Below, piece by piece: positions 2,699-56,643 of a stretch of DNA of 64,000 nucleotides. The notes beneath the pieces were generated by a model. The model did not search any database. It had not been told where the DNA came from and saw nothing but the letters and a program-made list of their open reading frames with translations. Both the position numbers and the translations under genes were made by a program. The stretch is taken from positions 2,197-66,196 of the forward strand of contig JAQTPW010000003.1 in NCBI GenBank assembly GCA_028712565.1, in the 5' to 3' direction. Numbering within the stretch: the stretch's first letter is position 1; the number at the start of each line of letters is the position of its first letter. Source of the DNA: Minisyncoccota bacterium (lineage in GTDB: Bacteria; Patescibacteriota; Minisyncoccia; Minisyncoccales; JAQTPW01).

Positions 2699-3740
2699 TA
2701 AGAGTAATTTCGGAAAGCCTTAAAGAGTATTTCTTAAATAAATTATATATTTCTTTATTATTTAATTTTTTATTTTTTTGTATAAATTTTCTTTTATTTA
2801 GCATTTCGGGCAGGCCCCGCAGTGCTGAAATATATGACTTCAATAAAATAAAAACTAATTGGAATTTCGGAGACTGATATCTGGCGCCCGCCCCTCTTTT
2901 AGTTAAAAGGCCAAAAATTATAAATGAATATCTTAAAACTGTATAAAAAGGGAGAAAGAGAATAAGTTTTGGCGGGAAATTTTTTAATACAACCCAAAAA
3001 TGGTTTCTTTCAACCAAAAATGCCTTAAAGCTAGAGTATTTTCCGGAAGTCCCCGAATAATAATGCTGGATAACCGCCGAAGGAACAAATTGGGCTTGCC
3101 AGCCAGCCAATCTTCCTCGCAGGCCCAAATCAGTATCTTCGCAATAAGCAAAAAACCTTTCATCAAACAGGCCGATTTCATCGAGCATTTCCTTCCTATA
3201 AAGGGCGGCGCAGCCGCTGGGAATTAGTATTTTCTCTATTTTATCATATTGGCCATTGTCAATTTCTTTTCTGCCTCTCCCGCGGGACATGCCGTCAAAA
3301 TAAATATTAACCCCAACCGAATCAATTAATTTTGAATTTTGGATTGATAATATTTTTGTTGCAGCCATACCTATTTTATCGTTTCTTTCTGCAACTTCCA
3401 CCAATTTTTCAAGGCAATTTTTATCTACTTTTGTGTCATTATTGAGTATAAAAACGTATTTTCCTTGAGCTATTCTTATTCCTCGATTGTTGCCTTCGGC
3501 AAATCCTAAATTTTTTTTATTTTCAACTATTATAGTTTTCGGAAAATTTTCTTTTACAAAACTGACTGAATCATCTTCCGAGCCATTATCTGCAAAAATA
3601 ATTTCAAAATTGGTAAAACTTTGATTTTCCAATGACGTAAGGCAGTCATTCAAATATCTTTTTCCGTTCCAATTAAGGATAACCACAGAAACTAAGGGCT
3701 TATTTTGTCGAGATTCTTTTTGATTTTTAACAATTATCAT
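2691..3740 (-). CDS. Family 2 glycosyltransferase
   Basis: GT2 N-terminal pattern VSVVILNWNG..., DNGSEDDS, NNDT; 349 aa. Confidence 0.8.
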   Translation of the reverse strand: MIIVKNQKESRQNKPLVSVVILNWNGKRYLNDCLTSLENQSFTNFEIIFADNGSEDDSVSFVKENFPKTIIVENKKNLGFAEGNNRGIRIAQGKYVFILNNDTKVDKNCLEKLVEVAERNDKIGMAATKILSIQNSKLIDSVGVNIYFDGMSRGRGRKEIDNGQYDKIEKILIPSGCAALYRKEMLDEIGLFDERFFAYCEDTDLGLRGRLAGWQAQFVPSAVIQHYYSGTSGKYSSFKAFLVERNHFWVVLKNFPPKLILFLPFYTVLRYSFIIFGLLTKRGAGARYQSPKFQLVFILLKSYISALRGLPEMLNKRKFIQKNKKLNNKEIYNLFKKYSLRLSEITLND

Positions 3741-4314
3741 TTATTTTTTTTAGAACAATTACCTCTTTATTATGAGTAAAATAGTTGCCTATTTTTTTCG
3801 GTAGGGGATAAAAAAAATGTTTTTGAGGAACAAATCTTCCCTTTGTAATGTCCAGAATTTCCTGAAAACTTATAAAATGCTTATGCCCTGTATTTAATTT
3901 CAGGCCGGAAATATATCCTTTTTGATTTGGAATCAAAATTAAAAAAAAAGCCCCTGTCTCTAAAATCCGGAAGACCTCATCAAAAATTTTTTCAGCATCT
4001 TTTAACTCGAAATGTTCCAAAACGTCGTGGGAGATCACCCATTTAAAAAAGTTATCCGGAAAAGGCAGCTTTTCTCTAATGTCTCCTTCAAAAACTTTAT
4101 ATCCCAAATCTTTTAAATAAGCTACACAATCGGGATTAAAATCTATTCCGCAAGCCCTAGGATTAATTTTAAAGTAAAACCCCCAGCCGCATCCCAAATC
4201 CAATACCTTTTCTTTTGCCCCCTTTGTTTTAAAAAGCGGCGAGCTTAGAAAATGTATTCTTATTAGTTCTTTGATTTTTGATTGTTTGGGAGTGAAATAT
4301 TTTTGTTCCGGCAT
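3727..4314 (-). CDS. Class I SAM-dependent methyltransferase
   Basis: SAM-binding motif I VLDLGCGWGFY; 195 aa. Confidence 0.7.
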   Translation of the reverse strand: MPEQKYFTPKQSKIKELIRIHFLSSPLFKTKGAKEKVLDLGCGWGFYFKINPRACGIDFNPDCVAYLKDLGYKVFEGDIREKLPFPDNFFKWVISHDVLEHFELKDAEKIFDEVFRILETGAFFLILIPNQKGYISGLKLNTGHKHFISFQEILDITKGRFVPQKHFFYPLPKKIGNYFTHNKEVIVLKKINDNC

Positions 4315-4380: not shown

Positions 4381-5379
4381 TTAGAGCTTTAGCCATTTTT
4401 TATTTTCAAGCATCCATCTTATCATTTTGTCAAAGCTTTGGTCTAAAGTAAATTTTGGCTGCCAGCCCATTTCTTTTAATTTTGTTCCATCGAGAGCATA
4501 TCTTCGGTCATGCCCAGGCCTAGTTTTATGGTAATCTAAGTACTCTATTTCGTTTTCGGCCAGATCCCTGTTTTTAATAATGCGTGAAATCCGATTTGCC
4601 AGATCTAGGGCGCTTCTTTCTTCTCCCACGATATTATAGATATCTTCACGTTCGCCTTTTTCCATCAAAAACAACAGGGCATCGCAGACATTTCGGGCAT
4701 GGATCCAGCATCTTGAACTTATCTGGCCAGGGACTCCATGGACCAAAACAGGTTTTCCTTCTAAAATAGTTTTTACGGTTTTTGGGATAAATTTTTCAGG
4801 GTGCTGGCGTTCTCCAAAAATATTCATTGATCTGGTAATTAAGATAGGTAATCCAAAGGAATGAGCGAAGGCAAATGCCATCATGTCTCCGCCTGCTTTG
4901 GCTCCCGAATAAGGGTTTGACGGTTTTAATCTATCCCATTCTTTATAATATACGCCTTCAGGAGCTGGGCCATAAACTTCATCGGTAGAAAATTGGACGA
5001 ATTTTTTAAGATTCGGTTGGTAATGTTTTATATATTCAAGAAGATTTGCTGTTCCTAAAACATTTGACATCACAAAAGGGATTGAGTCTTCCAAGCTCCT
5101 TTCAACATGGCTTTCGGCCGCCAAGTTCCAGATATAATCCAAATCTCCTATCATTTTATGGGTAGTTTCAGCTATTGGAGATTTTAAATCATGCCAGATA
5201 AATTTGACTCTGTGTTTTTCTTTTTCCCAGATTAAAATATCCGTCAGGCGGTTTAAGTTGCCGGCGTAAGTCAAACAGTCAAGAATTACAATTTCCCAGT
5301 CAGTATTTTTTAAAACCCCTTCAACTAAATGATGTCCGACAAAGCCTGCGCCGCCCGTCAATAAAAGTTTTTTGCTCAT
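4381..5379 (-). CDS. rfbB: dTDP-glucose 4,6-dehydratase-like NDP-sugar dehydratase (extended SDR)
   Basis: LLLTGGAGFVGHH Rossmann motif, catalytic YSGAKAG, 332 aa. Confidence 0.75.
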   Translation of the reverse strand: MSKKLLLTGGAGFVGHHLVEGVLKNTDWEIVILDCLTYAGNLNRLTDILIWEKEKHRVKFIWHDLKSPIAETTHKMIGDLDYIWNLAAESHVERSLEDSIPFVMSNVLGTANLLEYIKHYQPNLKKFVQFSTDEVYGPAPEGVYYKEWDRLKPSNPYSGAKAGGDMMAFAFAHSFGLPILITRSMNIFGERQHPEKFIPKTVKTILEGKPVLVHGVPGQISSRCWIHARNVCDALLFLMEKGEREDIYNIVGEERSALDLANRISRIIKNRDLAENEIEYLDYHKTRPGHDRRYALDGTKLKEMGWQPKFTLDQSFDKMIRWMLENKKWLKL

Positions 5380-5389
5380 ATTTTAAAAC

Positions 5390-5761
5390 TCATTTTAAAA
5401 TTAAAAAAATTCCTGCGAAAATAATAATTGTTCCAATAATTTTGAGAATTGTTATGCTTTCTCCCAGAAAAAGCCAGGATAATAAAAATAACAAAACGTA
5501 AAATATTCCGCTGGCAATGGGGAAAACGGCAGTCAGGTCTTTTTTTGAAATAACCGATACCCAAAATAATGCTGCAAAAATAGCAATTACTGCGCCAAAA
5601 ATAAAATATTTTTCCTGCAGTAATTTTATAAAGCTTCCAAAAAATTCCGGGAAATTATTTATTTGAATTCCCCCTGTCTTTATCAGTCCTTTCTTTAAAA
5701 AAATCTGGCTGGTTACCGTCAGCAAAGACACTAAAAATATTAAAGGTATAATCTTTATCAT
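5390..5761 (-). CDS. Small 4-TM EamA/SMR-like protein (ArnE/GtrA-like lipid-linked sugar flippase candidate)
   Basis: 123 aa, four hydrophobic helices; divergent from the GT-C gene. Confidence 0.5.
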   Translation of the reverse strand: MIKIIPLIFLVSLLTVTSQIFLKKGLIKTGGIQINNFPEFFGSFIKLLQEKYFIFGAVIAIFAALFWVSVISKKDLTAVFPIASGIFYVLLFLLSWLFLGESITILKIIGTIIIFAGIFLILK

Positions 5762-5841
5762 TTTTTGATTTTTAGCTTAACTTGCCAATAAATCGTTCTT
5801 CACTTATTATAAAAAAAACAGGTAAAAAATCAACTTTTAAC

Positions 5842-7119
5842 ATGAAGCCTATTTTAAACTTTTTCAAAGCAATTTACGAAAGGGAAAAATACTTAACATT
5901 CCTTATTTTTTTTCTTTCCATTATTTGTTCCCTTCTTTTTTTAATTTTCTTTAAAAACATCGGGCCTTCTGAGCATCAAATCCCGGGAAGTGATTATTTT
6001 GCCTATTATGAACCGCTCGCAAACAGCATTCTTTCCGGAAGGGGCTTTGTCATTTTCGGGAAAGTTCCTTTGAATGTTGGGCCAATATATCCTATTTTTC
6101 TTTCCGGAATATTAATGATTTCCCGTTTTTTCTGGTTTGATAAATTTTTTTTAATAACTATATTCAATGTTATTCTTGCGGCAGCTTCTTCCTGTTTCTT
6201 GTTTTTGCTAGCCCGGGAAATATTTAATAAAAAAATAGCGCTTCTTTCCTCAATTTTATGGATGAGCTATCCTTTTAATCTCTGGTTTATTAAAAACCCC
6301 AATACTGAAGTGCCATTTATTCCCTTGCTTTATTTCGGGATTTTTCTTTATATTCTGGCGGCAAAGAAAAAAGATTTAAAAATCATGTTTTTTAGCGGCT
6401 TAATTCTTGGACTTTCTTCTCTGGCAAGGTTAATAAATTTGTTTCTTCCTCTGGCACTTTTCCTTTTTATCTTTTTTCTTCTGGAGGGCGAGTTAAAAAA
6501 GAAAAAATTGATTTTCGCGACGGTTTTTCTACTGGGAGCAGTAATTTCATTTTTGCCATGGGGACTTTATACTTTTGCAAAAACCGGAAATTTTATCCCT
6601 TTTTCACACATTGCTTCAAAGGGAATTATCCAGGGCTTCGTCACGCTTTCGCGGGAAGGCAAAGGGGTGGGAGGCAAGGCAGATGTAGTATTGGAGGAGG
6701 TAAAAGCCGTAGATGCTCTTGGCAACGAAACAGGCACATTTTATTTTTTAATTCGCACATTTTTTAAAAATCCTTTTGTATTCATAAAATTAATTGGATT
6801 GAAAATGGCAAGGTCTTGGTATGCAACTTATATGATGTGGTGGGAAAGCGCCATATTGGCAGTTCAGATGGTTTATATTTCCAGCTCTCTTTTTGGACTG
6901 ATTTATTGCCTAAAAAAATGCAAAGATAAGATAAAGCATATAACTCTTATTTTAATTATTATATTTTACTTTTGGGCAATAGACATTTTAACTGGATCTA
7001 TTTTAAGATATATGGTGCCGGCAATGGGGATTTTGATTATTTTTTCCGCAATTACAATCAGCTTATTATTAGATAAAATAAGAAAAAAATTTCAATGGAA
7101 ACAAAATTTGTCTCAATAA
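5842..7119 (+). CDS. GT-C fold membrane glycosyltransferase (ArnT/PMT-like)
   Basis: Polytopic membrane protein of about 425 aa with many TM helices. ATG at 5842 is preferred over the TTG at 5782. Confidence 0.6.
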   Translation: MKPILNFFKAIYEREKYLTFLIFFLSIICSLLFLIFFKNIGPSEHQIPGSDYFAYYEPLANSILSGRGFVIFGKVPLNVGPIYPIFLSGILMISRFFWFDKFFLITIFNVILAAASSCFLFLLAREIFNKKIALLSSILWMSYPFNLWFIKNPNTEVPFIPLLYFGIFLYILAAKKKDLKIMFFSGLILGLSSLARLINLFLPLALFLFIFFLLEGELKKKKLIFATVFLLGAVISFLPWGLYTFAKTGNFIPFSHIASKGIIQGFVTLSREGKGVGGKADVVLEEVKAVDALGNETGTFYFLIRTFFKNPFVFIKLIGLKMARSWYATYMMWWESAILAVQMVYISSSLFGLIYCLKKCKDKIKHITLILIIIFYFWAIDILTGSILRYMVPAMGILIIFSAITISLLLDKIRKKFQWKQNLSQ

Positions 7120-48840: not shown

Positions 48841-48856
48841 AATTTATCTTCAAAGC

Positions 48857-48927
48857 TGCGGAGTCGTCTAATGGTAGGACTGCAGCCTCTGGAGCTGTGT
48901 ATGTTGGTTCGAATCCAACCTCCGCAG
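48857..48927 (+). tRNA. tRNA-Gln (anticodon CTG)
   Basis: Acceptor TGCGGAG/CTCCGCA, anticodon loop CTCTGGA, T-arm GTTGGTTCGAATCCAAC, discriminator G. Confidence 0.9.
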
Positions 48928-48950
48928 CTTTGAAGATAAGTAGTAATAAA

Positions 48951-49069
48951 TTTGGCGGGGTGAAGTAGGACTGTAGCCTTCCCGTCTGCGGCGGGATAAA
49001 CTGGCTTGCCCCGCTATGGCGGGGAGCCATTAATCTTGGTTCGCCTGCCCCGTAGTGAACCGAGATTTT
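48951..49069 (+). ncRNA. GC-rich structured RNA / attenuator-like leader candidate (class unknown)
   Basis: Two GCGGGG and two CCCCG segments; strong hairpin 49002-49029; terminator-like TCTTGGTTC...GAACCGAGA + TTTT at 49034-49069. Confidence 0.35.
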
Positions 49070-49129
49070 CAAGATTCTACTACTGGGAATCCAAGCCCGG
49101 CAGCCGTTCGTATTTAAACTAAAGAGCTT

Positions 49130-51121: not shown

Positions 51122-51204
51122 AGGCATCATTTTCCCATTTATAATGAAATTAAACCGAAGATATTATTAAAACATGCGAAGTCAGGTGACTGAGACGCAT
51201 GAAA

Positions 51205-51235
51205 GGAAAACCGCCCGAAACAGGCGGTTTTCCTT
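51205..51235. terminator. GC hairpin terminator at the left edge of the GC-rich cassette
   Basis: GGAAAACCGCC-CGAAACA-GGCGGTTTTCC followed by TTTTC. Confidence 0.5.
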
Positions 51236-51262
51236 TTCTACTCCAAGCTGAGTCGCAAACCC

Positions 51263-51291
51263 TTGACAAAGTTTATTTATAGTAATGTAAT
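51263..51291 (+). promoter_or_regulatory. Candidate promoter of the GC-rich ORF
   Basis: TTGACA-17 nt-TGTAAT. Confidence 0.45.
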
Positions 51292-51362
51292 GAAGATGTA
51301 AAAAGAGAATATCTTTTTGCTGCCCTAAACGGCATACGCACATTGAAAAGGAGATTTGTTTG

Positions 51363-51866
51363 ATGGAAAAGATTCTGAGTGTTCGTCGCATTGGCTTGGT
51401 TGCACGCATCGCCGACATGCTGATGGTGCCGATCATGTATATTTCTTCGGGTACGTTTCGCGAGAAACCCCAGCATACGCACGCATGGAACGTGCAGAAT
51501 TTGCCAGCAGACGGAGACAAGCGTCTGGTCAACCAGGCAATGGCTCACTGCAAGGGTATCGCCGAACAGATAGCTCGGCGTCACTGGTTGGACTTTCAGT
51601 TCCACATACTGATTATTGGAGGATGGCGTAACTACGTCGTCCTTCAGCCCGAATATGAGGAAGTGTGGCATGTTGGTTGGAGGGCGTCTGACGCAGGTGC
51701 CCAGATTTCCATATTGCCCCTCGTTGGCCCGGTACGCATGCTGATTGGTTCCGAAGACGTATCGTTCTTCGGCGTCACCGACGACGGCGTCCAAATTCCG
51801 ATCCGTGAGATCGGCAAGGGTCGCATCGGAGATTGCGGAGAGTTTTCCAAAATTCAGCTTTATTGA
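51363..51866 (+). CDS. Hypothetical protein in a GC-rich, foreign-looking cassette
   Basis: SD AAGGAG 9 nt before the ATG, own promoter and terminator. A mirror ORF on the - strand (51273-51872) shares codon register, so strand choice is not certain. Confidence 0.5.
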   Translation: MEKILSVRRIGLVARIADMLMVPIMYISSGTFREKPQHTHAWNVQNLPADGDKRLVNQAMAHCKGIAEQIARRHWLDFQFHILIIGGWRNYVVLQPEYEEVWHVGWRASDAGAQISILPLVGPVRMLIGSEDVSFFGVTDDGVQIPIREIGKGRIGDCGEFSKIQLY

Positions 51867-51908
51867 TATCATCCCAAATGGGATGGACGTTCAACAAGGC
51901 GACAGGTT

Positions 51909-51938
51909 ACCGCCTACCTGAGTTAAAGGCGGTTTTTT
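51909..51938 (+). terminator. Terminator of the GC-rich ORF
   Basis: ACCGCCT-ACCTGAGTTA-AAGGCGGT followed by TTTTTT. Confidence 0.55.
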
Positions 51939-52329
51939 CTTTACTTCGACTCGTTTCATTCGTTCAGCGCAGGCTCTTATTCTACCCCGGGATTTTGCGG
52001 GCGAAAGTTTTTGTTTATCCTGAGCGCAGTCGAACAGATTGAAATTTATCGGAAAAAGCATAAAGTTAATATAAGAAATACGTAAAAAATAACAAGGGAG
52101 TAGGTAAATTTTATGAAAAAACAATCTCAAAATTTAATTGTTGGAAATCCGGACAATAAAACAAGCTTTTGAGCTTTTGAATATTCACTATTAATATAAA
52201 TAATAAAGGTATTTTGAAAACTAATTGTTTTGTTGGTTGTAGAGATGGGCGATATAAAAAACCGAATATTTTAAAATTGAAAAAAGTTAAAAATAGTATT
52301 TTAAAAAAAGTAAAATAAAAAATTAAATT

Positions 52330-55300
52330 ATGAATATGGGTGGTCTTTTTGAAAATTATATCCAATCTATCTCTTCTAAATTTTCTCATGCAGAGACGAG
52401 TGAAATGGGATACCGTACGGACTTTGAGAATTTAATTAAAGAGATTTTCGAGGCGATTAAAGTCTATCGGATAGACCATGACGCAAAAGCTGAAAAGGGC
52501 AATAAGCCAGATTTTGTTGTGCTCAAATATGATGTGCCAATTTTGTATATTGAAACAAAAGATATCGGTGTTTATTTGGATAAAGTTGAAAAATCAGAGC
52601 AAATGGCAAGGTATTATGGTTATACAAATTTAGTTCTTACCAATTATGTCGAATTTCGTTTTTATAGAAATGGAATCCGTTATGAAGAGCCGATAAAAAT
52701 TGCCAATTACGATATAAAAAATAGAATAATTTCTCCAATTCCCGAAAATTACGAGCATATCGCCAAATCATTAGTTGAATTTACTCAAACTTACAAGGAG
52801 CCGATACGTTCAGGCGAGCACCTCGCAAAGATTATGGGTGGGAAAGCGCAAAGAATTAGGGATAATGTGCGTCAATTTTTTGTTTCCGAATCAGATAAAA
52901 GTATTGAACTCTTCCATGTTTATGAAACTGTAAAAAAACTCCTTGTTCATGATCTTACGCCAGACGCTTTTTCTGATATGTATGCGCAAACTCTAGTCTA
53001 TGGCCTTTTTGTCGCTCGTTATTATGACGAATCACCAGATACCTTTACGCGACAAGAGGCCCGCGATCTTGTTCCCGATTCCAATCCTTTTCTTGGACAT
53101 TTTTTTGATCACATCGTTGGACGGAATTTTGATAAGCGACTCGAATATATCGTAAATGAATTGTGCGAAGTTTTTGCCCATTCTAATGTAAAAGAATTAA
53201 TGGGCCAATATTTCAAGACGGATTTATTCGATAAGACCCATGAAGAACCCGATCCGGTTATTCATTTTTATGAAGATTTTTTAAAGGAATACGATCCCGA
53301 ATTAAGGAAAAAAATGGGGGCGTATTATACGCCGTTGCCCGTTGTCAGGTTTATTGTACGAGCTGTAGATAAAATTCTCGAAATGGATTTTGGATTGGTT
53401 AGGGGGCTTGCCGATAATGTTAAAAATACTGCCGGAATTCACCGCGTGCAAATTCTTGACCCAGCCGTCGGTACGGGTACTTTTATTAGTGCGATAATTC
53501 GGGCTATTTATGAACGTATTTTGAAAGCCAAGCAGGAAGGAAGTTGGCCAGCTTACGTGCATCACGATCTTTTACCTCGTATCCATGGATTTGAATTGAT
53601 GATGGCTCCATACACAATAGCTCATTTAAAATTGAGCATGGCGTTTGAAAAAACTGGATTTTGGAAATTTCATCGTCGGCTTGGTATCTATCTTACGAAT
53701 TCCCTCGAAGAGAGTCCTATCCAAAAGGATTTATTTACCGGCTTTGGTTTTGCCGAAAGTATTGCCGAAGAGTCAAAAGAAGCATCAGTTATAAAAAATA
53801 AAACCCCGATTATGGTGGTTGTTGGTAATCCGCCTTATAGCGTAAGCTCCTCAAACAAAGGCGAGTGGATACAAAATCTCATTAAGGATTATAAAAAGGG
53901 TCTCGGTGAACGGAAGATTAATCTTGATGACGATTATATTAAATTCATCCGTTTTGCCGAACACTTTATAGAGAAAAATAAAAGCGGCATTGTCGCGATG
54001 ATTACCAATAACTCATTTATAGACGGTATCACTCATCGTCAAATGAGAAAGCATCTACTTGAAACATTTAATGATATTTATATTCTTGACCTTCACGGAA
54101 ACTCCAAGAAAAAAGAAAAGGCGCCGGACGGGAGGAAAGATGAAAACGTCTTCGATATCCAGCAGGGTGTTTCGATTAATGTTTTTGTACGCGAGGAAGG
54201 TGAAAAAAAGGGTCTCGGTACTGTCCGCCACGCCGAACTTTATGGAAAAAGAGAAAATAAATTTGAAACATTAAGCAAAAACGATATAACAACTATTAAA
54301 TGGAAAAAACTTAATTCACCCGAACCATATTATTTTTTCGTACCAAAGGATTTCGGAGTGGAAGCGGAGTATAGTAAAGGGTTTAAAGTCGATGAATTAT
54401 TTAACATCTTTAGCGTCGGTATTGGTACAAAAGTTGATTCTATATCCGTTGATTTTGATAAAGATAAATTGATAAGAAGAGTAATTGATATTTTGAATAA
54501 CAAGTATAAAAAAGAGTCATTAATTTTAAAGTTTGAATTAGAAAATAATACGACTTGGGAGTACGAGAGAGCCCTTAACGCAACGTTTGAAGAAAATAAA
54601 ATAGTTGAATATGATTATCGTCCCTTCGATAAAAGATACACTTTTTATGATCACGATTTTCTGTCTAGAGGTCGGCGGAATGTAATGGATAATTTTTTCA
54701 ATAAAAATAATTATGGTCTTGAACTGGGTCGAACGTCATTCGTTGCTTTTATATCTAAGGACTTAAGTGACGAGCATTTCGGAGGTCCTAAATCTTATAA
54801 ATTTCCTCTCTATATTTGGGCTGCCGGCAAAAATCGAACACCAAATTTTAAAAAATCAATTATTGAAGAAATAGAAAAAATTATAGGCAAGGCATCCCCT
54901 GAAGATATTTTCGATTACATTTATGCCGTTCTTCACTCGCCAAGCTATCGCGAAAAATACAAGGAATTTTTGAAGATTGATTTTCCTCGAATACCTTATC
55001 CGAAAAATAAAATAAGCTTTAAGAAGCTTGTAGCGTTTGGCACGGAATTACGTTCACTGCACCTTCTTGAATCTCCAAAAATTAACAAATTTATAACAAC
55101 ATATCCTATTACTGGATCAGATACCACCGATAAAATAACTTATAAAGATAATAAAGTATTTATCAATAATGATCAGTATTTTGGCAATGTATCTGAATTA
55201 GCTTGGAATTTCTATGTCGGCGGTTATCAACCAGCACAAAAATGGCTCAAAGACCGCAAGGGCCGTACCCTCACAAATGCCGATATTGAACACTACCAAA

Positions 55301-55377
55301 AAATAATTGTTGCACTCACCGAAACAGATAAAATCATGAAAGAAATTGATAAAATTTATGTTAAAAAAGCAAGATAA
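52330..55377 (+). CDS. Single-polypeptide type IIG-like restriction-modification enzyme (PD-ExK nuclease + gamma N6-adenine methyltransferase + C-terminal specificity domain)
   Basis: N-terminal KPDFVV...LYIETKD; motif I ILDPAVGTGTF; motif IV VVGNPPYS; C-terminal FLKIDFPRIPYP...LRSLHLLES, as in type ISP/IIG specificity domains. No helicase/ATPase motifs. Confidence 0.8.
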   Translation: MNMGGLFENYIQSISSKFSHAETSEMGYRTDFENLIKEIFEAIKVYRIDHDAKAEKGNKPDFVVLKYDVPILYIETKDIGVYLDKVEKSEQMARYYGYTNLVLTNYVEFRFYRNGIRYEEPIKIANYDIKNRIISPIPENYEHIAKSLVEFTQTYKEPIRSGEHLAKIMGGKAQRIRDNVRQFFVSESDKSIELFHVYETVKKLLVHDLTPDAFSDMYAQTLVYGLFVARYYDESPDTFTRQEARDLVPDSNPFLGHFFDHIVGRNFDKRLEYIVNELCEVFAHSNVKELMGQYFKTDLFDKTHEEPDPVIHFYEDFLKEYDPELRKKMGAYYTPLPVVRFIVRAVDKILEMDFGLVRGLADNVKNTAGIHRVQILDPAVGTGTFISAIIRAIYERILKAKQEGSWPAYVHHDLLPRIHGFELMMAPYTIAHLKLSMAFEKTGFWKFHRRLGIYLTNSLEESPIQKDLFTGFGFAESIAEESKEASVIKNKTPIMVVVGNPPYSVSSSNKGEWIQNLIKDYKKGLGERKINLDDDYIKFIRFAEHFIEKNKSGIVAMITNNSFIDGITHRQMRKHLLETFNDIYILDLHGNSKKKEKAPDGRKDENVFDIQQGVSINVFVREEGEKKGLGTVRHAELYGKRENKFETLSKNDITTIKWKKLNSPEPYYFFVPKDFGVEAEYSKGFKVDELFNIFSVGIGTKVDSISVDFDKDKLIRRVIDILNNKYKKESLILKFELENNTTWEYERALNATFEENKIVEYDYRPFDKRYTFYDHDFLSRGRRNVMDNFFNKNNYGLELGRTSFVAFISKDLSDEHFGGPKSYKFPLYIWAAGKNRTPNFKKSIIEEIEKIIGKASPEDIFDYIYAVLHSPSYREKYKEFLKIDFPRIPYPKNKISFKKLVAFGTELRSLHLLESPKINKFITTYPITGSDTTDKITYKDNKVFINNDQYFGNVSELAWNFYVGGYQPAQKWLKDRKGRTLTNADIEHYQKIIVALTETDKIMKEIDKIYVKKAR

Positions 55378-56110
55378 AACATATATTTTTATTGACGAGT
55401 CTGGTAAACCCGAGGTGTATTCAGTAAGAGGCGTCAATTTAGTTGAACAAGGATTCGCTACTAAATTTTTTGTATTAGCTGCGATCCGAAGTGACGATCA
55501 ATTAGCCATACAACAGAAAGTTACCGATTTTAAATCAGAATTATTGCACGATAAAAATTTAACAAAAATATTTTCTTCCGCTTACACTCTTGACGCTTTT
55601 CACGCACAAACCGATTATCCCGAAGTTAAAGAAAAATTCTATCAATTTATAAACAGTTTAGATATCAAAATAGATGTAATTGTTGTAGAAAAGTTAAAGT
55701 GCTATCAAGCGCTTAAACAAAATCCAGGCAAAATGTATGGGATAATGGCTGGACAGCTTTTAAAGAATATTTGTCATAAGTCAAAAAGAACAGAAATAGT
55801 TTTTTCTCGCAAAGACAGTAAGCTTAAATTTCGGCAAGAGCTAGAAATCGAAGTGGAGCGGATTAGATTAGAATGGTTACAACAACATAAAAATCTTGAC
55901 GGGAAATTTACTCTCTCATATCAGCATAATCCTCACCATACTCACGGCGGATTACAGATTGCCGACTATGTTGCTTATGCTATTTTTCAAGCGTACGAAC
56001 ATGGAAAAAATCAGTGGTATGAAGTTATCAAAAATAAAATCGGAGAAATCCACGATATATGCAACAAAAAATACTTCACTAGGAGCAATCCGCTAAAACT
56101 ATCCACTTAA
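55358..56110 (+). CDS. DUF3800-like protein
   Basis: N-terminal YIFIDESG and C-terminal GGLQIADYVAYAIF motifs; start overlaps the R-M gene stop by 20 nt. Confidence 0.65.
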   Translation: MLKKQDKTYIFIDESGKPEVYSVRGVNLVEQGFATKFFVLAAIRSDDQLAIQQKVTDFKSELLHDKNLTKIFSSAYTLDAFHAQTDYPEVKEKFYQFINSLDIKIDVIVVEKLKCYQALKQNPGKMYGIMAGQLLKNICHKSKRTEIVFSRKDSKLKFRQELEIEVERIRLEWLQQHKNLDGKFTLSYQHNPHHTHGGLQIADYVAYAIFQAYEHGKNQWYEVIKNKIGEIHDICNKKYFTRSNPLKLST

Positions 56111-56439
56111 AGGAAGTGCGAACTTCGCACGTTTCATTAAGCGAATTGCTCTCAATGAAGTATTTAAGGGTACAATTGCATTGTACCACAAAAGCGGGCG
56201 TCAAGGCAAAAGTTATCCACAGATAGAAAAAAGCGGGCTTTGAGCCCGGAGTGCGCTTTCGTAGATTAATCCTATAATGTTTTCTGCATTACTATAATTC
56301 CTACTGGAATTGTAGTAAAAACTAAAACAAATTTTGAAACAGTTTCAATAGATGATTTATTGGAGAATAAATATATGTACGCAGATTTACTTTTGAATCC
56401 GAACGCCGTATGATAAGAAAAAAATAATCAAAATTTAGT

Positions 56440-56643
56440 ATGAAAAGACAAATTACAAAAAAAGCTTTTGAAAAAGAGATTAAGATGTGTGAGAAATTAG
56501 CAAAAGAAAAGAAAGGGAAATGCGGTTGGGGAAAATGTAAAGATTGTGGAGTGATTCCACTTTTGTATAAGTTGCACAAAGGGAAATTATTGGAGAAATC
56601 GGCGGAAATTAAAAAAGCTAAAGAAAAAATAATCAAAATATAG
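56440..56643 (+). CDS. Small Lys-rich protein with a CxWGxCxxCG cysteine cluster
   Basis: 67 aa, MCEKLAKEKKGKCGWGKCKDCGVIPLLYKL; 24 nt upstream of the CYTH gene. Confidence 0.45.
   Translation: MKRQITKKAFEKEIKMCEKLAKEKKGKCGWGKCKDCGVIPLLYKLHKGKLLEKSAEIKKAKEKIIKI

What the first reader, a model, noticed from the sequence alone, without database searches (positions are those of the whole stretch)
52330..56110. Type IIG-like single-chain R-M enzyme translationally coupled to a DUF3800 protein
The 1015-aa protein combines an N-terminal PD-ExK nuclease, a gamma-class N6-adenine methyltransferase (GTGTF, NPPY) and a C-terminal specificity domain of the kind seen in type ISP/IIG enzymes, but with no helicase module. 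The DUF3800-like gene starts 20 nt before its stop codon, which argues for co-expression. I do not know an established role for DUF3800 as an R-M partner. The pair could be a two-gene defence unit (for example sensor/effector or a modification-dependent backup). Neighbours are the GC-rich cassette, a small Cys protein, CYTH and ABC-F, which gives the region a defence-island flavour.
Basis: partly seen in the sequence, partly recalled or inferred. Interest (0 to 1): 0.55.

Follow-up and report, generated by a model that had tools for sequence, protein, structure and literature searches.

The report
Restriction enzyme beside RNA-partnered nuclease cassette

Summary
There is a 1015-aa type IIG enzyme (PD-ExK nuclease, gamma-class N6A methyltransferase, Type_ISP_C specificity domain, no helicase). 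A 250-aa DUF3800 gene starts at ATG 55358, 20 nt before the enzyme's stop codon.

None of 84 homologous DUF3800 loci (64-78% aa identity, all Patescibacteria) has this type IIG enzyme next to it, apart from one identical contig fragment. Five loci holding type IIG homologs have no DUF3800.

DUF3800 genes of this family are nonetheless enriched next to R-M genes of many types: 23 of 67 loci have one within two genes.

The constant partner of DUF3800 is a ~98-nt structured RNA on the opposite strand (window 56163 to 56066). It was found in every locus and overlaps the last 45 nt of the ORF. Its own sigma-70-like promoter and a stem plus U-run terminator are predicted from sequence. It has 10 covarying pairs, 99.3% standard pairing on the minus strand against 89% on the plus strand, and no Rfam match.

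In other genomes, DUF3800 plus this RNA forms a ~0.84-kb promoterless cassette flanked by direct repeats. My best reading is an autonomous R-M enzyme juxtaposed with a mobile cassette that I infer to be toxin/RNA-antitoxin-like (abortive infection); the module's function is untested.

The parts
52330..55377 (+). Single-chain type IIG (DrdV/MmeI-like) restriction-modification enzyme, 1015 aa. PD-ExK nuclease about nt 52417-52671, gamma-class N6A methyltransferase about 53251-54096, Type_ISP_C specificity domain about 54394-55344.
   Evidence: Nearest solved structures are DrdV 7lo5 (E 7e-45), LlaBIII 4xqk and LlaGI 5ffj. More than 8000 homologues at E<=1e-20.
55358..55377 (+). 20-nt overlap between the enzyme's last codons (Y-V-K-K-A-R-stop) and the first DUF3800 codons (M-L-K-K-Q-D-K).
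   Evidence: The tail is atypical for the type IIG family. The conserved DUF3800 core (YIFIDESG) starts at 55382, 4 nt after the enzyme's stop codon.
55358..56110 (+). DUF3800 protein, 250 aa, RNase HII-like fold. Invariant residues include E14, D86, D106, D153, Q200, D203 and D233; D13 and E111 are nearly invariant.
   Evidence: Pfam and PADLOC. Alignment of 37 homologues, 74% mean column identity. AlphaFold model with pLDDT 85. Foldseek best hits are RNase HII 1eke (E 6.7e-5, TM 0.50-0.55) and human RNase H2A 3puf.
56066..56163 (-). About 98-nt structured antisense ncRNA. The 5' end is at about 56163 and the U-run is the complement of A6 at 56066-56071. It overlaps the last 45 nt of the DUF3800 ORF, including its stop codon.
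   Evidence: Found in all 84 homologous loci (82 complete, 2 cut by a contig end). 28 pairs, 10 with compensatory changes, 99.3% paired, 0 of 500 shuffles as good. Minus strand: 218 G-U pairs and 14 mismatches; plus strand: 3 G-U pairs and 229 mismatches. MFE -43.6 kcal/mol, z = -8.0. Covariance model R1 scores 120 bits and finds one copy in the window. The non-coding half is 89% identical between loci, against 67% for the ORF body and 32% for the flank. No Rfam family matches.
56180..56209 (-). Predicted promoter of the ncRNA: TTGCCT, 18-nt spacer, TACAAT with a TG extension.
   Evidence: Across loci, 30 of 63 have a match of at least 10/12 to the sigma-70 consensus on this strand. In 24 of those 30 the -10 hexamer ends 6-10 nt before the first conserved base. 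Shuffles give 2.8%, and the opposite strand gives 1 of 63.
56213..56221 (+). Perfect DnaA-box-like 9-mer TTATCCACA just upstream of the ncRNA promoter, at the presumed right edge of the cassette.
   Evidence: 14 of 63 loci have a perfect copy within 200 nt, against 0.14 loci expected from the background. Its function is unknown.
56224..56248 (-). Terminator-like hairpin plus T-run on the minus strand, just outside the cassette.
   Evidence: Role inferred only.

Best explanation
Two separate modules lie side by side.

(A) The 1015-aa protein is an autonomous type IIG enzyme of the DrdV/MmeI kind. One polypeptide recognises a site, methylates adenine and cuts unmodified DNA. It needs no partner.

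(B) DUF3800 plus the antisense RNA is a self-contained mobile cassette of about 0.85 kb (about 55358/55382 to 56225).
- The RNase HII-like nuclease gene has no promoter of its own. I infer that it is transcribed, and probably translationally coupled, by read-through from whatever gene lies upstream; here that is the type IIG gene.
- The ~98-nt RNA appears to be made from its own promoter on the other strand and to end at a stem plus U-run inside the ORF's 3' end (predicted from sequence).
- Inferred mechanism: the RNA keeps the nuclease in check. It would do so by pairing with the mRNA's last 45 nt and 3' UTR (type I-like), by binding the protein (type III-like, as msDNA does in retron toxin-antitoxin systems), or both. 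Loss of the RNA on transcription shut-off or cassette loss would then release the nuclease, giving abortive infection or addiction.

The 20-nt overlap is a by-product of the junction, not a co-evolved design.
For: Shown:
- The type IIG enzyme is complete, and its family stands without DUF3800.
- DUF3800 homologues never have this enzyme beside them.
- The RNA is found in every DUF3800 locus and is more conserved than the ORF.
- Covariation and the strand asymmetry of G-U pairs point to a minus-strand RNA.
- A positioned promoter and a U-run are present.
- DUF3800 has an RNase HII-like fold with an intact acidic site.

Cassette behaviour:
- A 937-nt unit (DUF3800 plus RNA) lies between ~96-nt repeats of the radC 3' end in L014, L022 and L037.
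- Other flanking direct repeats occur in L009, L031, L042 and L074.
- The neighbours fall into 280 clusters among 448 proteins.
- Unrelated upstream genes abut the cassette tightly.

From the literature:
- Eleven unrelated RNA motifs associate with DUF3800 genes (PMC5737381).
- DUF3800 is the effector of type VII retrons (PMC7736814) and an accessory of Cas12a2/VI-F loci (PMC10910872, PMC12669027).
Against: - There is no transcript or activity evidence of any kind. The toxin/antitoxin role is an inference.
- The enrichment of R-M genes next to DUF3800 could reflect a functional link rather than shared hot spots.
- A different type IIG-like enzyme (Eco57I family) sits directly upstream of DUF3800 in L079/L080.
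- No flanking direct repeat was found in the window itself.
- Two mutually exclusive helices are both supported in the RNA and remain unexplained.
Confidence: 0.6

Rival explanations
1. One reading: the type IIG enzyme and DUF3800 form a dedicated, co-evolved two-gene defence system, co-expressed through the overlap.
For: The 20-nt overlap is real and there is no terminator between the genes. A second, unrelated type IIG-like enzyme directly precedes DUF3800 in L079/L080.
Against: None of the 84 homologous DUF3800 loci other than the identical fragment L001 has this enzyme. None of 5 type IIG homologue loci has DUF3800. The enzyme's tail is atypical and looks like a junction artefact. The same tight abutment occurs behind RadC, peptidase U32, formyltransferase, SNase and others.
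Confidence: 0.05
2. DUF3800 plus the RNA is a second-line nuclease functionally tied to R-M systems in general. The model is the PrrC anticodon nuclease embedded in the EcoprrI type I operon: it is held latent while R-M works and is released when a phage disables R-M.
For: R-M genes are enriched within two genes of DUF3800. In L035 and L050 the cassette has R-M genes on both sides, and in L019 and L045 it lies beside type I operons. Its neighbours include RhuM and Fic. That RhuM and Fic are typical passengers of R-M operons, and the PrrC precedent itself, rest on my own knowledge.
Against: About two thirds of loci have no R-M gene within two genes. The partner R-M types are heterogeneous. The invariant partner is the RNA, which already offers a means of control. 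The cassette also sits behind housekeeping genes.
Confidence: 0.2
3. The conserved ~100-bp element is not an RNA gene but a DNA recombination site (attC-like or dif-like, folding as single-stranded DNA) that mobilises a promoterless DUF3800 cassette.
For: The cassette is promoterless, sits in many contexts and is flanked by direct repeats. In L037 the DUF3800 3' end plus the element is duplicated (182 nt, 99% identity) around an inserted R-M cassette. G-T wobble pairs would also be tolerated in folded single-stranded DNA.
Against: - A well-positioned sigma-70-like promoter and a U-run fit a transcript.
- The repeats that bound the cassettes are copies of the target gene's 3' end, not of this element.
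- The element's sequence, loops included, is nearly invariant and always tied to the same gene, unlike attC sites.
- No integrase was seen nearby.
Confidence: 0.1

Closest known systems
Type IIG/IIL single-chain R-M enzymes (DrdV, MmeI)
   Same: One polypeptide of about 1000 aa with an N-terminal PD-ExK nuclease, a gamma-class N6A methyltransferase (motif I, then NPPY) and a C-terminal specificity domain. DrdV is the best solved relative.
   Different: Nothing notable. The recognition site is unknown. The C-terminal tail is lengthened by the junction with DUF3800.
Type ISP enzymes LlaGI and LlaBIII
   Same: The methyltransferase and Type_ISP_C specificity domain are homologous.
   Different: There is no helicase-like ATPase motor, so this is not a type ISP enzyme.
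DUF3800-associated RNA motifs (DUF3800-I to -XI, Weinberg et al. 2017, PMC5737381; Rfam RF02969, RF02968 and others)
   Same: A conserved structured RNA with a terminator-like 3' end, encoded next to a DUF3800 gene. UAA triplets are frequent, and the function is unknown.
   Different: It matches no Rfam model, even at E<=10 on a 321-nt stretch. Here the RNA is antisense to the DUF3800 ORF and overlaps its 3' end, and its promoter can be placed.
Type VII retrons (RT plus DUF3800 effector; Mestre et al. 2020, PMC7736814)
   Same: The effector family is the same, with an RNase H2-like fold, and the PADLOC DUF3800_VII model matches. A nucleic-acid partner probably controls the nuclease.
   Different: There is no reverse transcriptase nearby and no msr/msd. 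This protein keeps the QxxD motif (QIAD) that the retron clade lacks.
Type I and type III toxin-antitoxin systems; PrrC/EcoprrI
   Same: A cis-encoded antisense or structured RNA lies opposite a potentially harmful enzyme. The module sits in mobile or defence contexts and next to R-M operons.
   Different: The putative toxin is a 250-aa soluble nuclease, not a small membrane peptide as in type I. The RNA is a single unit, not a tandem-repeat array as in type III ToxI. Toxicity has not been tested.

Membership tests
Type IIG R-M enzyme | Nuclease, methyltransferase and specificity domain in one polypeptide | tested here: met
   Pfam and PADLOC. PD...ExK, DPAVGTGTF and NPPY motifs read in the translation.
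Type IIG R-M enzyme | Sequence-specific cleavage and methylation activity | not testable with these tools
   Needs methylome data or biochemistry.
Type ISP R-M enzyme | Helicase-like ATPase motor between the nuclease and the methyltransferase | tested here: not met
   No helicase domain in Pfam. The alignments to LlaBIII and LlaGI cover only the methyltransferase and specificity part.
DUF3800 (PF12686) | Profile match above the gathering score; N-terminal DE motif and C-terminal QxxD motif | tested here: met
   49.3 bits against a cutoff of 21. FIDESG and QIAD motifs; E14, Q200 and D203 invariant and D13 nearly invariant among homologues. RNase HII-like fold.
Type VII retron | Adjacent retron reverse transcriptase and msr/msd ncRNA | tested here: not met
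   No RT domain among the window neighbours or among the 25 most frequent Pfam families of each neighbour set (136 neighbour proteins in all). No retron or RT RNA family in Rfam.
DUF3800-associated RNA motifs (Weinberg 2017) | Conserved structured RNA encoded beside a DUF3800 gene | tested here: met
DUF3800-associated RNA motifs (Weinberg 2017) | Match to one of the described motifs (Rfam models) | tested here: not met
   No DUF3800-* family at E<=10. Caveat: I could not verify that all 11 motifs are in Rfam, and the paper's supplement is not held.
Type I toxin-antitoxin | Antisense RNA overlapping the toxin mRNA; small hydrophobic toxin | tested here: inconclusive
   The antisense overlap is met (45 nt plus the 3' UTR). 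The toxin type is not met, because the protein is a 250-aa enzyme.

The most novel reading that the evidence does not exclude
DUF3800 plus its antisense RNA is a widespread mobile cassette of Patescibacteria. A structured RNA acts as antitoxin or sensor for an RNase H-like nuclease, an RT-less counterpart of retron toxin-antitoxin systems. The cassette travels in integron-like arrays of promoterless defence cassettes, separated by repeats of a target gene's 3' end (for example radC), together with R-M cassettes. If so, this locus gives the first mechanistic handle on the function of the DUF3800-associated RNAs, for which their discoverers could offer no hypothesis and for which I found no later functional study.
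Probability: 0.3. Interest if true: 0.7.

Novelty: new member of a known kind. Interest (0 to 1): 0.42.

Why it matters
As proposed, the finding would have added DUF3800 as a partner of type IIG enzymes. That specific claim does not hold, and the enzyme itself is ordinary.

What is worth keeping is a DUF3800 clade whose RNA partner has a clear strand, predicted promoter, terminator and covariation-supported fold, and overlaps the nuclease ORF. This turns the question of what the DUF3800 RNAs do into simple experiments: toxicity with and without the RNA, and RNA binding.

The cassette arrays at radC also hint at how genome-reduced CPR bacteria shuffle small defence modules.

Tried and rejected
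- Rfam at gathering and at lax E-values, on the window, on 7 kb and on 321 nt: only generic long-hairpin (miRNA precursor) hits and no DUF3800, RT or toxin-antitoxin RNA family over the element.
- Retron hypothesis: no RT found.
- The 230-aa gene that overlaps the stop codon of the closest type IIG homologue (L086) is not a divergent DUF3800 (hhalign probability 0.2%).
- Genome-contig scan with the single protein gave only 4 loci. The metagenome scan with an alignment gave 80.
- The supplement of the Weinberg paper is not held.
- A literature search for later functional work on the drum, skipping-rope and DUF3800 RNAs found none.
- The GC-rich segment 51130-52080 has no E. coli match and no Pfam, PHROG or PADLOC hit.
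- No significant direct repeats flank the cassette in the window, only A-rich 23-25-mers.
- The plus-strand reading of the element (3' UTR or terminator of the DUF3800 mRNA) was rejected: it gives 229 mismatches against 14 and has no conserved T-run.
Full report
**1. Observation**

The window holds ORF 52330-55377 (+, 1015 aa) and an ORF ending at 56110. The first protein carries three parts.
- Type_ISP_C (aa 689-1005, E 2.7e-79).
- N6_Mtase/Eco57I/MmeI_Mtase (aa 308-589).
- A weak N-terminal HSDR_N-type nuclease hit.

PADLOC calls it REase_MTase_IIG at 912 bits. The translation shows PDFVVLKYDVPILYIETK (PD...ExK), DPAVGTGTF (motif I) and GNPPYS (motif IV). With the specificity domain last, the order is gamma-class. 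No helicase domain is present. The nearest solved structures are DrdV (7lo5), LlaBIII and LlaGI, aligned over the methyltransferase and specificity part only.

The second gene is a true DUF3800: PF12686 at 49.3 bits against a cutoff of 21, and PADLOC DUF3800_VII at E 1e-19. Its start is ATG 55358, which agrees with the deposited 250-aa protein and with the homologues. The enzyme's TAA is at 55375-55377, so the 20-nt overlap is real. The source is a Candidatus Pacebacteria MAG.

**2. Is the pair conserved? No**

I collected 84 loci encoding DUF3800 homologues of 64-78% identity, all from Patescibacteria MAGs or metagenomes. tblastn with the window's type IIG protein finds it beside none of them. 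The one exception is L001, a 2.2-kb contig identical to the window.

In the other direction, the type IIG family is very large: more than 8000 hits, with relatives of 67-81% identity annotated in Patescibacteria, Bacteroidota and Atribacteria. In five homologue loci the next gene is an unrelated small gene (no Pfam hit, pP_pnuc_1 or DUF6998) and never DUF3800.

Type IIG homologues end ...IMKEIDK plus 0-4 residues. The window enzyme ends ...EIDKIYVKKAR, and this extra tail is the out-of-frame reading of DUF3800's first codons. The conserved DUF3800 core (YIFIDESG) begins 4 nt after the enzyme's stop codon. The overlap therefore looks like a junction by-product (inference).

The same tight abutment recurs behind many unrelated genes. 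In 18 of 43 same-strand cases the upstream stop codon lies within 35 nt of the core. The upstream genes in those cases include RadC, peptidase U32, formyltransferase, SNase, N6 methylases and a ResIII helicase.

**3. Is DUF3800 enriched near R-M genes? Yes, generically**

The 448 proteins within four genes of DUF3800 fall into 280 clusters. The largest clusters are N6_Mtase/HsdM (17 loci), N6_N4_Mtase (9 and 6 loci) and HsdR/ResIII (8 loci). NYN, PDDEXK_1, RadC, peptidase U32, RmuC and UvrD-nuclease follow.
- Genes homologous to the R-M clusters make up 20%, 16% and 14% of positions +1, +2 and +3, and 10% of position -1.
- At five or more positions away the rate is 1.9% (27 of 205 against 6 of 316, p 3.6e-7).
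- 23 of 67 non-redundant loci have such a gene within two genes.

Because that set was defined from near genes, I repeated the count with Pfam.
- Near proteins: 11 N6_Mtase, 7 N6_N4_Mtase, 9 ResIII and 3 Methylase_S among 136.
- Far proteins: 5 HsdR-type, 2 Methylase_S, and fewer than 2 each of the DNA methylase families among 140.

In L079/L080 a different type IIG-like enzyme (Eco57I family) directly precedes DUF3800. In L035 and L050 the cassette has R-M genes on both sides. The defence-island link holds, but it is not specific to this enzyme.

**4. The constant partner: an antisense structured RNA**

Aligning the 3' ends of the loci showed a ~100-nt block that is nearly invariant. It starts abruptly ~53 nt downstream of the window ORF's stop codon and runs into the ORF.
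- *Conservation.* Mean pairwise identity is 89% for the non-coding half, 88% for the half inside the ORF, 67% for the ORF body and 32% for the flank.
- *Structure.* RNAalifold gives a long closing stem in three segments and an internal hairpin GUGCGA-AGU-UCGCAC. Of 28 pairs, 10 show compensatory changes. 99.3% of cells are paired, no shuffle out of 500 does as well, and slid controls give 30-49%.
- *Strand.* Read on the window's minus strand there are 218 G-U pairs and 14 mismatches. On the plus strand there are 3 G-U pairs and 229 mismatches.
- *Terminator.* On the minus strand the closing stem is followed by U6. This is the complement of the AAAAAA in the invariant N-K-K-Y codons.
- *Promoter.* In 30 of 63 loci a match of at least 10/12 to TTGACA-N16-18-TATAAT lies upstream. 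In 24 of those 30 the -10 hexamer ends 6-10 nt before the first conserved base. Shuffles give 2.8% and the other strand gives 1 of 63. In the window the scan finds TTGCCT-N18-TACAAT with a TG extension at 56209-56180.
- *Window copy.* It spans 56163 to 56066, folds at -43.6 kcal/mol (z = -8.0) and is the only copy in the window.
- *Novelty.* It matches no Rfam family.
- *Open point.* A second helix (alignment columns 33-40 with 69-76), mutually exclusive with the base of the main stem, is also supported by compensatory changes. This remains unexplained and could indicate a switch.

**5. The protein**

The AlphaFold model (pLDDT 85) best matches RNase HII (1eke, E 6.7e-5) and human RNase H2A. 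This agrees with Mestre et al. (PMC7736814). The residues E14, D86, D106, D153, Q200, D203 and D233 are invariant, and D13 and E111 are nearly invariant, so an active nuclease is likely (inference).

**6. Cassette behaviour**

In L014, L022 and L037 a 937-nt unit lies directly after radC. It is made of the DUF3800 ORF, the RNA and the RNA's promoter, and it is followed by a ~96-nt copy of the radC 3' end. Further cassettes (NYN, Fic, a methylase with a 173-aa protein) are each followed by another copy.

L037 also carries a 182-nt, 99%-identical second copy of the DUF3800 3' end plus the RNA and promoter. L009, L031, L042 and L074 show other flanking direct repeats of 28-70 nt; the L074 repeat resembles part of a tRNA by eye.

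The window shows no such repeat. By analogy its cassette would span about 55358/55382 to 56225 (inference).

**7. Mechanism**

*Shown*
- The two modules occur independently of each other.
- There is no intergenic space and no terminator-like site between the type IIG gene and DUF3800.
- Sequence features of an RNA gene (promoter, fold, terminator) lie on the opposite strand.

*Inferred*
- DUF3800 is expressed by read-through from the type IIG gene.
- The RNA controls DUF3800 by pairing with its mRNA, by binding the protein, or both.
- Loss of the RNA frees an RNase H-like nuclease, giving abortive infection or addiction.

I put about 0.6 on the claim that these are independent modules and that DUF3800 plus the RNA is a mobile two-part cassette. 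Within that, I put about 0.35 on the toxin/RNA-antitoxin mechanism. The main rival (0.2) is a PrrC-like functional tie to R-M systems in general.

**8. Comparison and novelty**

The type IIG enzyme is a routine member of a known family. DUF3800 is known as the type VII retron effector and as an accessory of Cas12a2/VI-F loci (PMC7736814, PMC10910872, PMC12669027). Eleven unrelated RNA motifs are already known to accompany DUF3800 genes, with no proposed function (PMC5737381).

This RNA appears to be a further, undescribed member of that kind. It has the added features of an antisense overlap with the ORF and a definable transcription unit. The proposed IIG-DUF3800 system is not supported.

Noticed in passing
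L014:9900-12235, L022:9901-10933, L037:359-3964: Arrays of small promoterless cassettes (DUF3800 plus RNA, NYN, Fic, a methylase with a 173-aa protein, then HsdR) lie directly after radC. Each cassette is followed by a ~93-97-nt copy of the radC 3' end (79-89% identity). This is an integron-like or island-array pattern in Patescibacteria, and no recombinase was identified.
   Followed up: partly
L037:1095-1276 and 3719-3900: A 182-nt direct repeat (99% identity) comprises the last ~27 codons of DUF3800, the RNA and the RNA's promoter. The second copy is an orphan RNA with only a gene remnant, and sits after an inserted R-M cassette.
   Followed up: partly
window 56213-56221, and the same position in 13 other loci: A perfect DnaA-box 9-mer TTATCCACA, in either orientation, lies just upstream of the ncRNA promoter in 14 of 63 loci, against about 0.14 loci expected. 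With one mismatch allowed the count is 24 of 63 against about 4 expected. Its meaning is unknown; it could be a regulator site or the cassette end.
   Followed up: partly
L094:3860-3899 (IMG/VR contig, GC-rich): The central ~36 nt of the RNA (GAAACGUGCGAAGUUCGCACUUCCUUAAnUGGAUAG) occurs almost unchanged in a GC-rich viral contig with no DUF3800 gene within 4 kb (R1 local hit of 33.6 bits). The core may belong to a wider RNA class.
   Followed up: partly
A2 alignment columns 33-40 with 69-76 (window about 56101-56108 and 56137-56144, minus strand): The RNA has two mutually exclusive helices, CCGCU with AGCGG and CCGCUUAA with UUAAGUGG. Both keep pairing through compensatory changes. This could be a conformational switch spanning the ORF's stop codon.
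   Followed up: partly
window 51270-52050: A GC-rich segment (about 46% over 1 kb, against about 34% for the window) holds overlapping ORFs on both strands (168 and 199 aa) with no Pfam, PADLOC, PHROG or E. coli match. Hairpin plus T-run sites flank it at about 51199-51236 and 51905-51940. There is a weak sub-threshold Rfam ohsC/IS128 hit at 51158-51284.
   Followed up: partly
window 48844-48939: tRNA-Gln(CTG) at 48857-48928 is enclosed by a perfect 20-nt inverted repeat that extends the acceptor stem by 13 bp.
   Followed up: no
window 48950-49110: A GC-rich intergenic stretch after tRNA-Gln looks structured (repeated GCGGGG/CCCCGC-type arms). It has no Rfam match at E<=1.
   Followed up: partly
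window 56414-56438 and 56619-56643: A 25-nt direct repeat (88% identity) brackets the 67-aa Cys-rich ORF (56440-56643). A-rich 23-mers also recur upstream of the type IIG start, at the IIG/DUF3800 junction and at this ORF's end (52302, 55361, 56609). The sequence is low-complexity, so this may be chance.
   Followed up: no
L086, L089, L090, L092 (type IIG homologue loci): Type IIG homologues are often preceded by a small HTH_17/MerR-like gene (a possible controller). They are also followed at -4 to +23 nt by unrelated small genes. The slot behind this enzyme may therefore be a recurrent landing site.
   Followed up: no
window 5000-6000: Cumulative GC skew reaches its minimum here and rises steadily to the window's end. 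A replication origin may lie near 5-6 kb.
   Followed up: no
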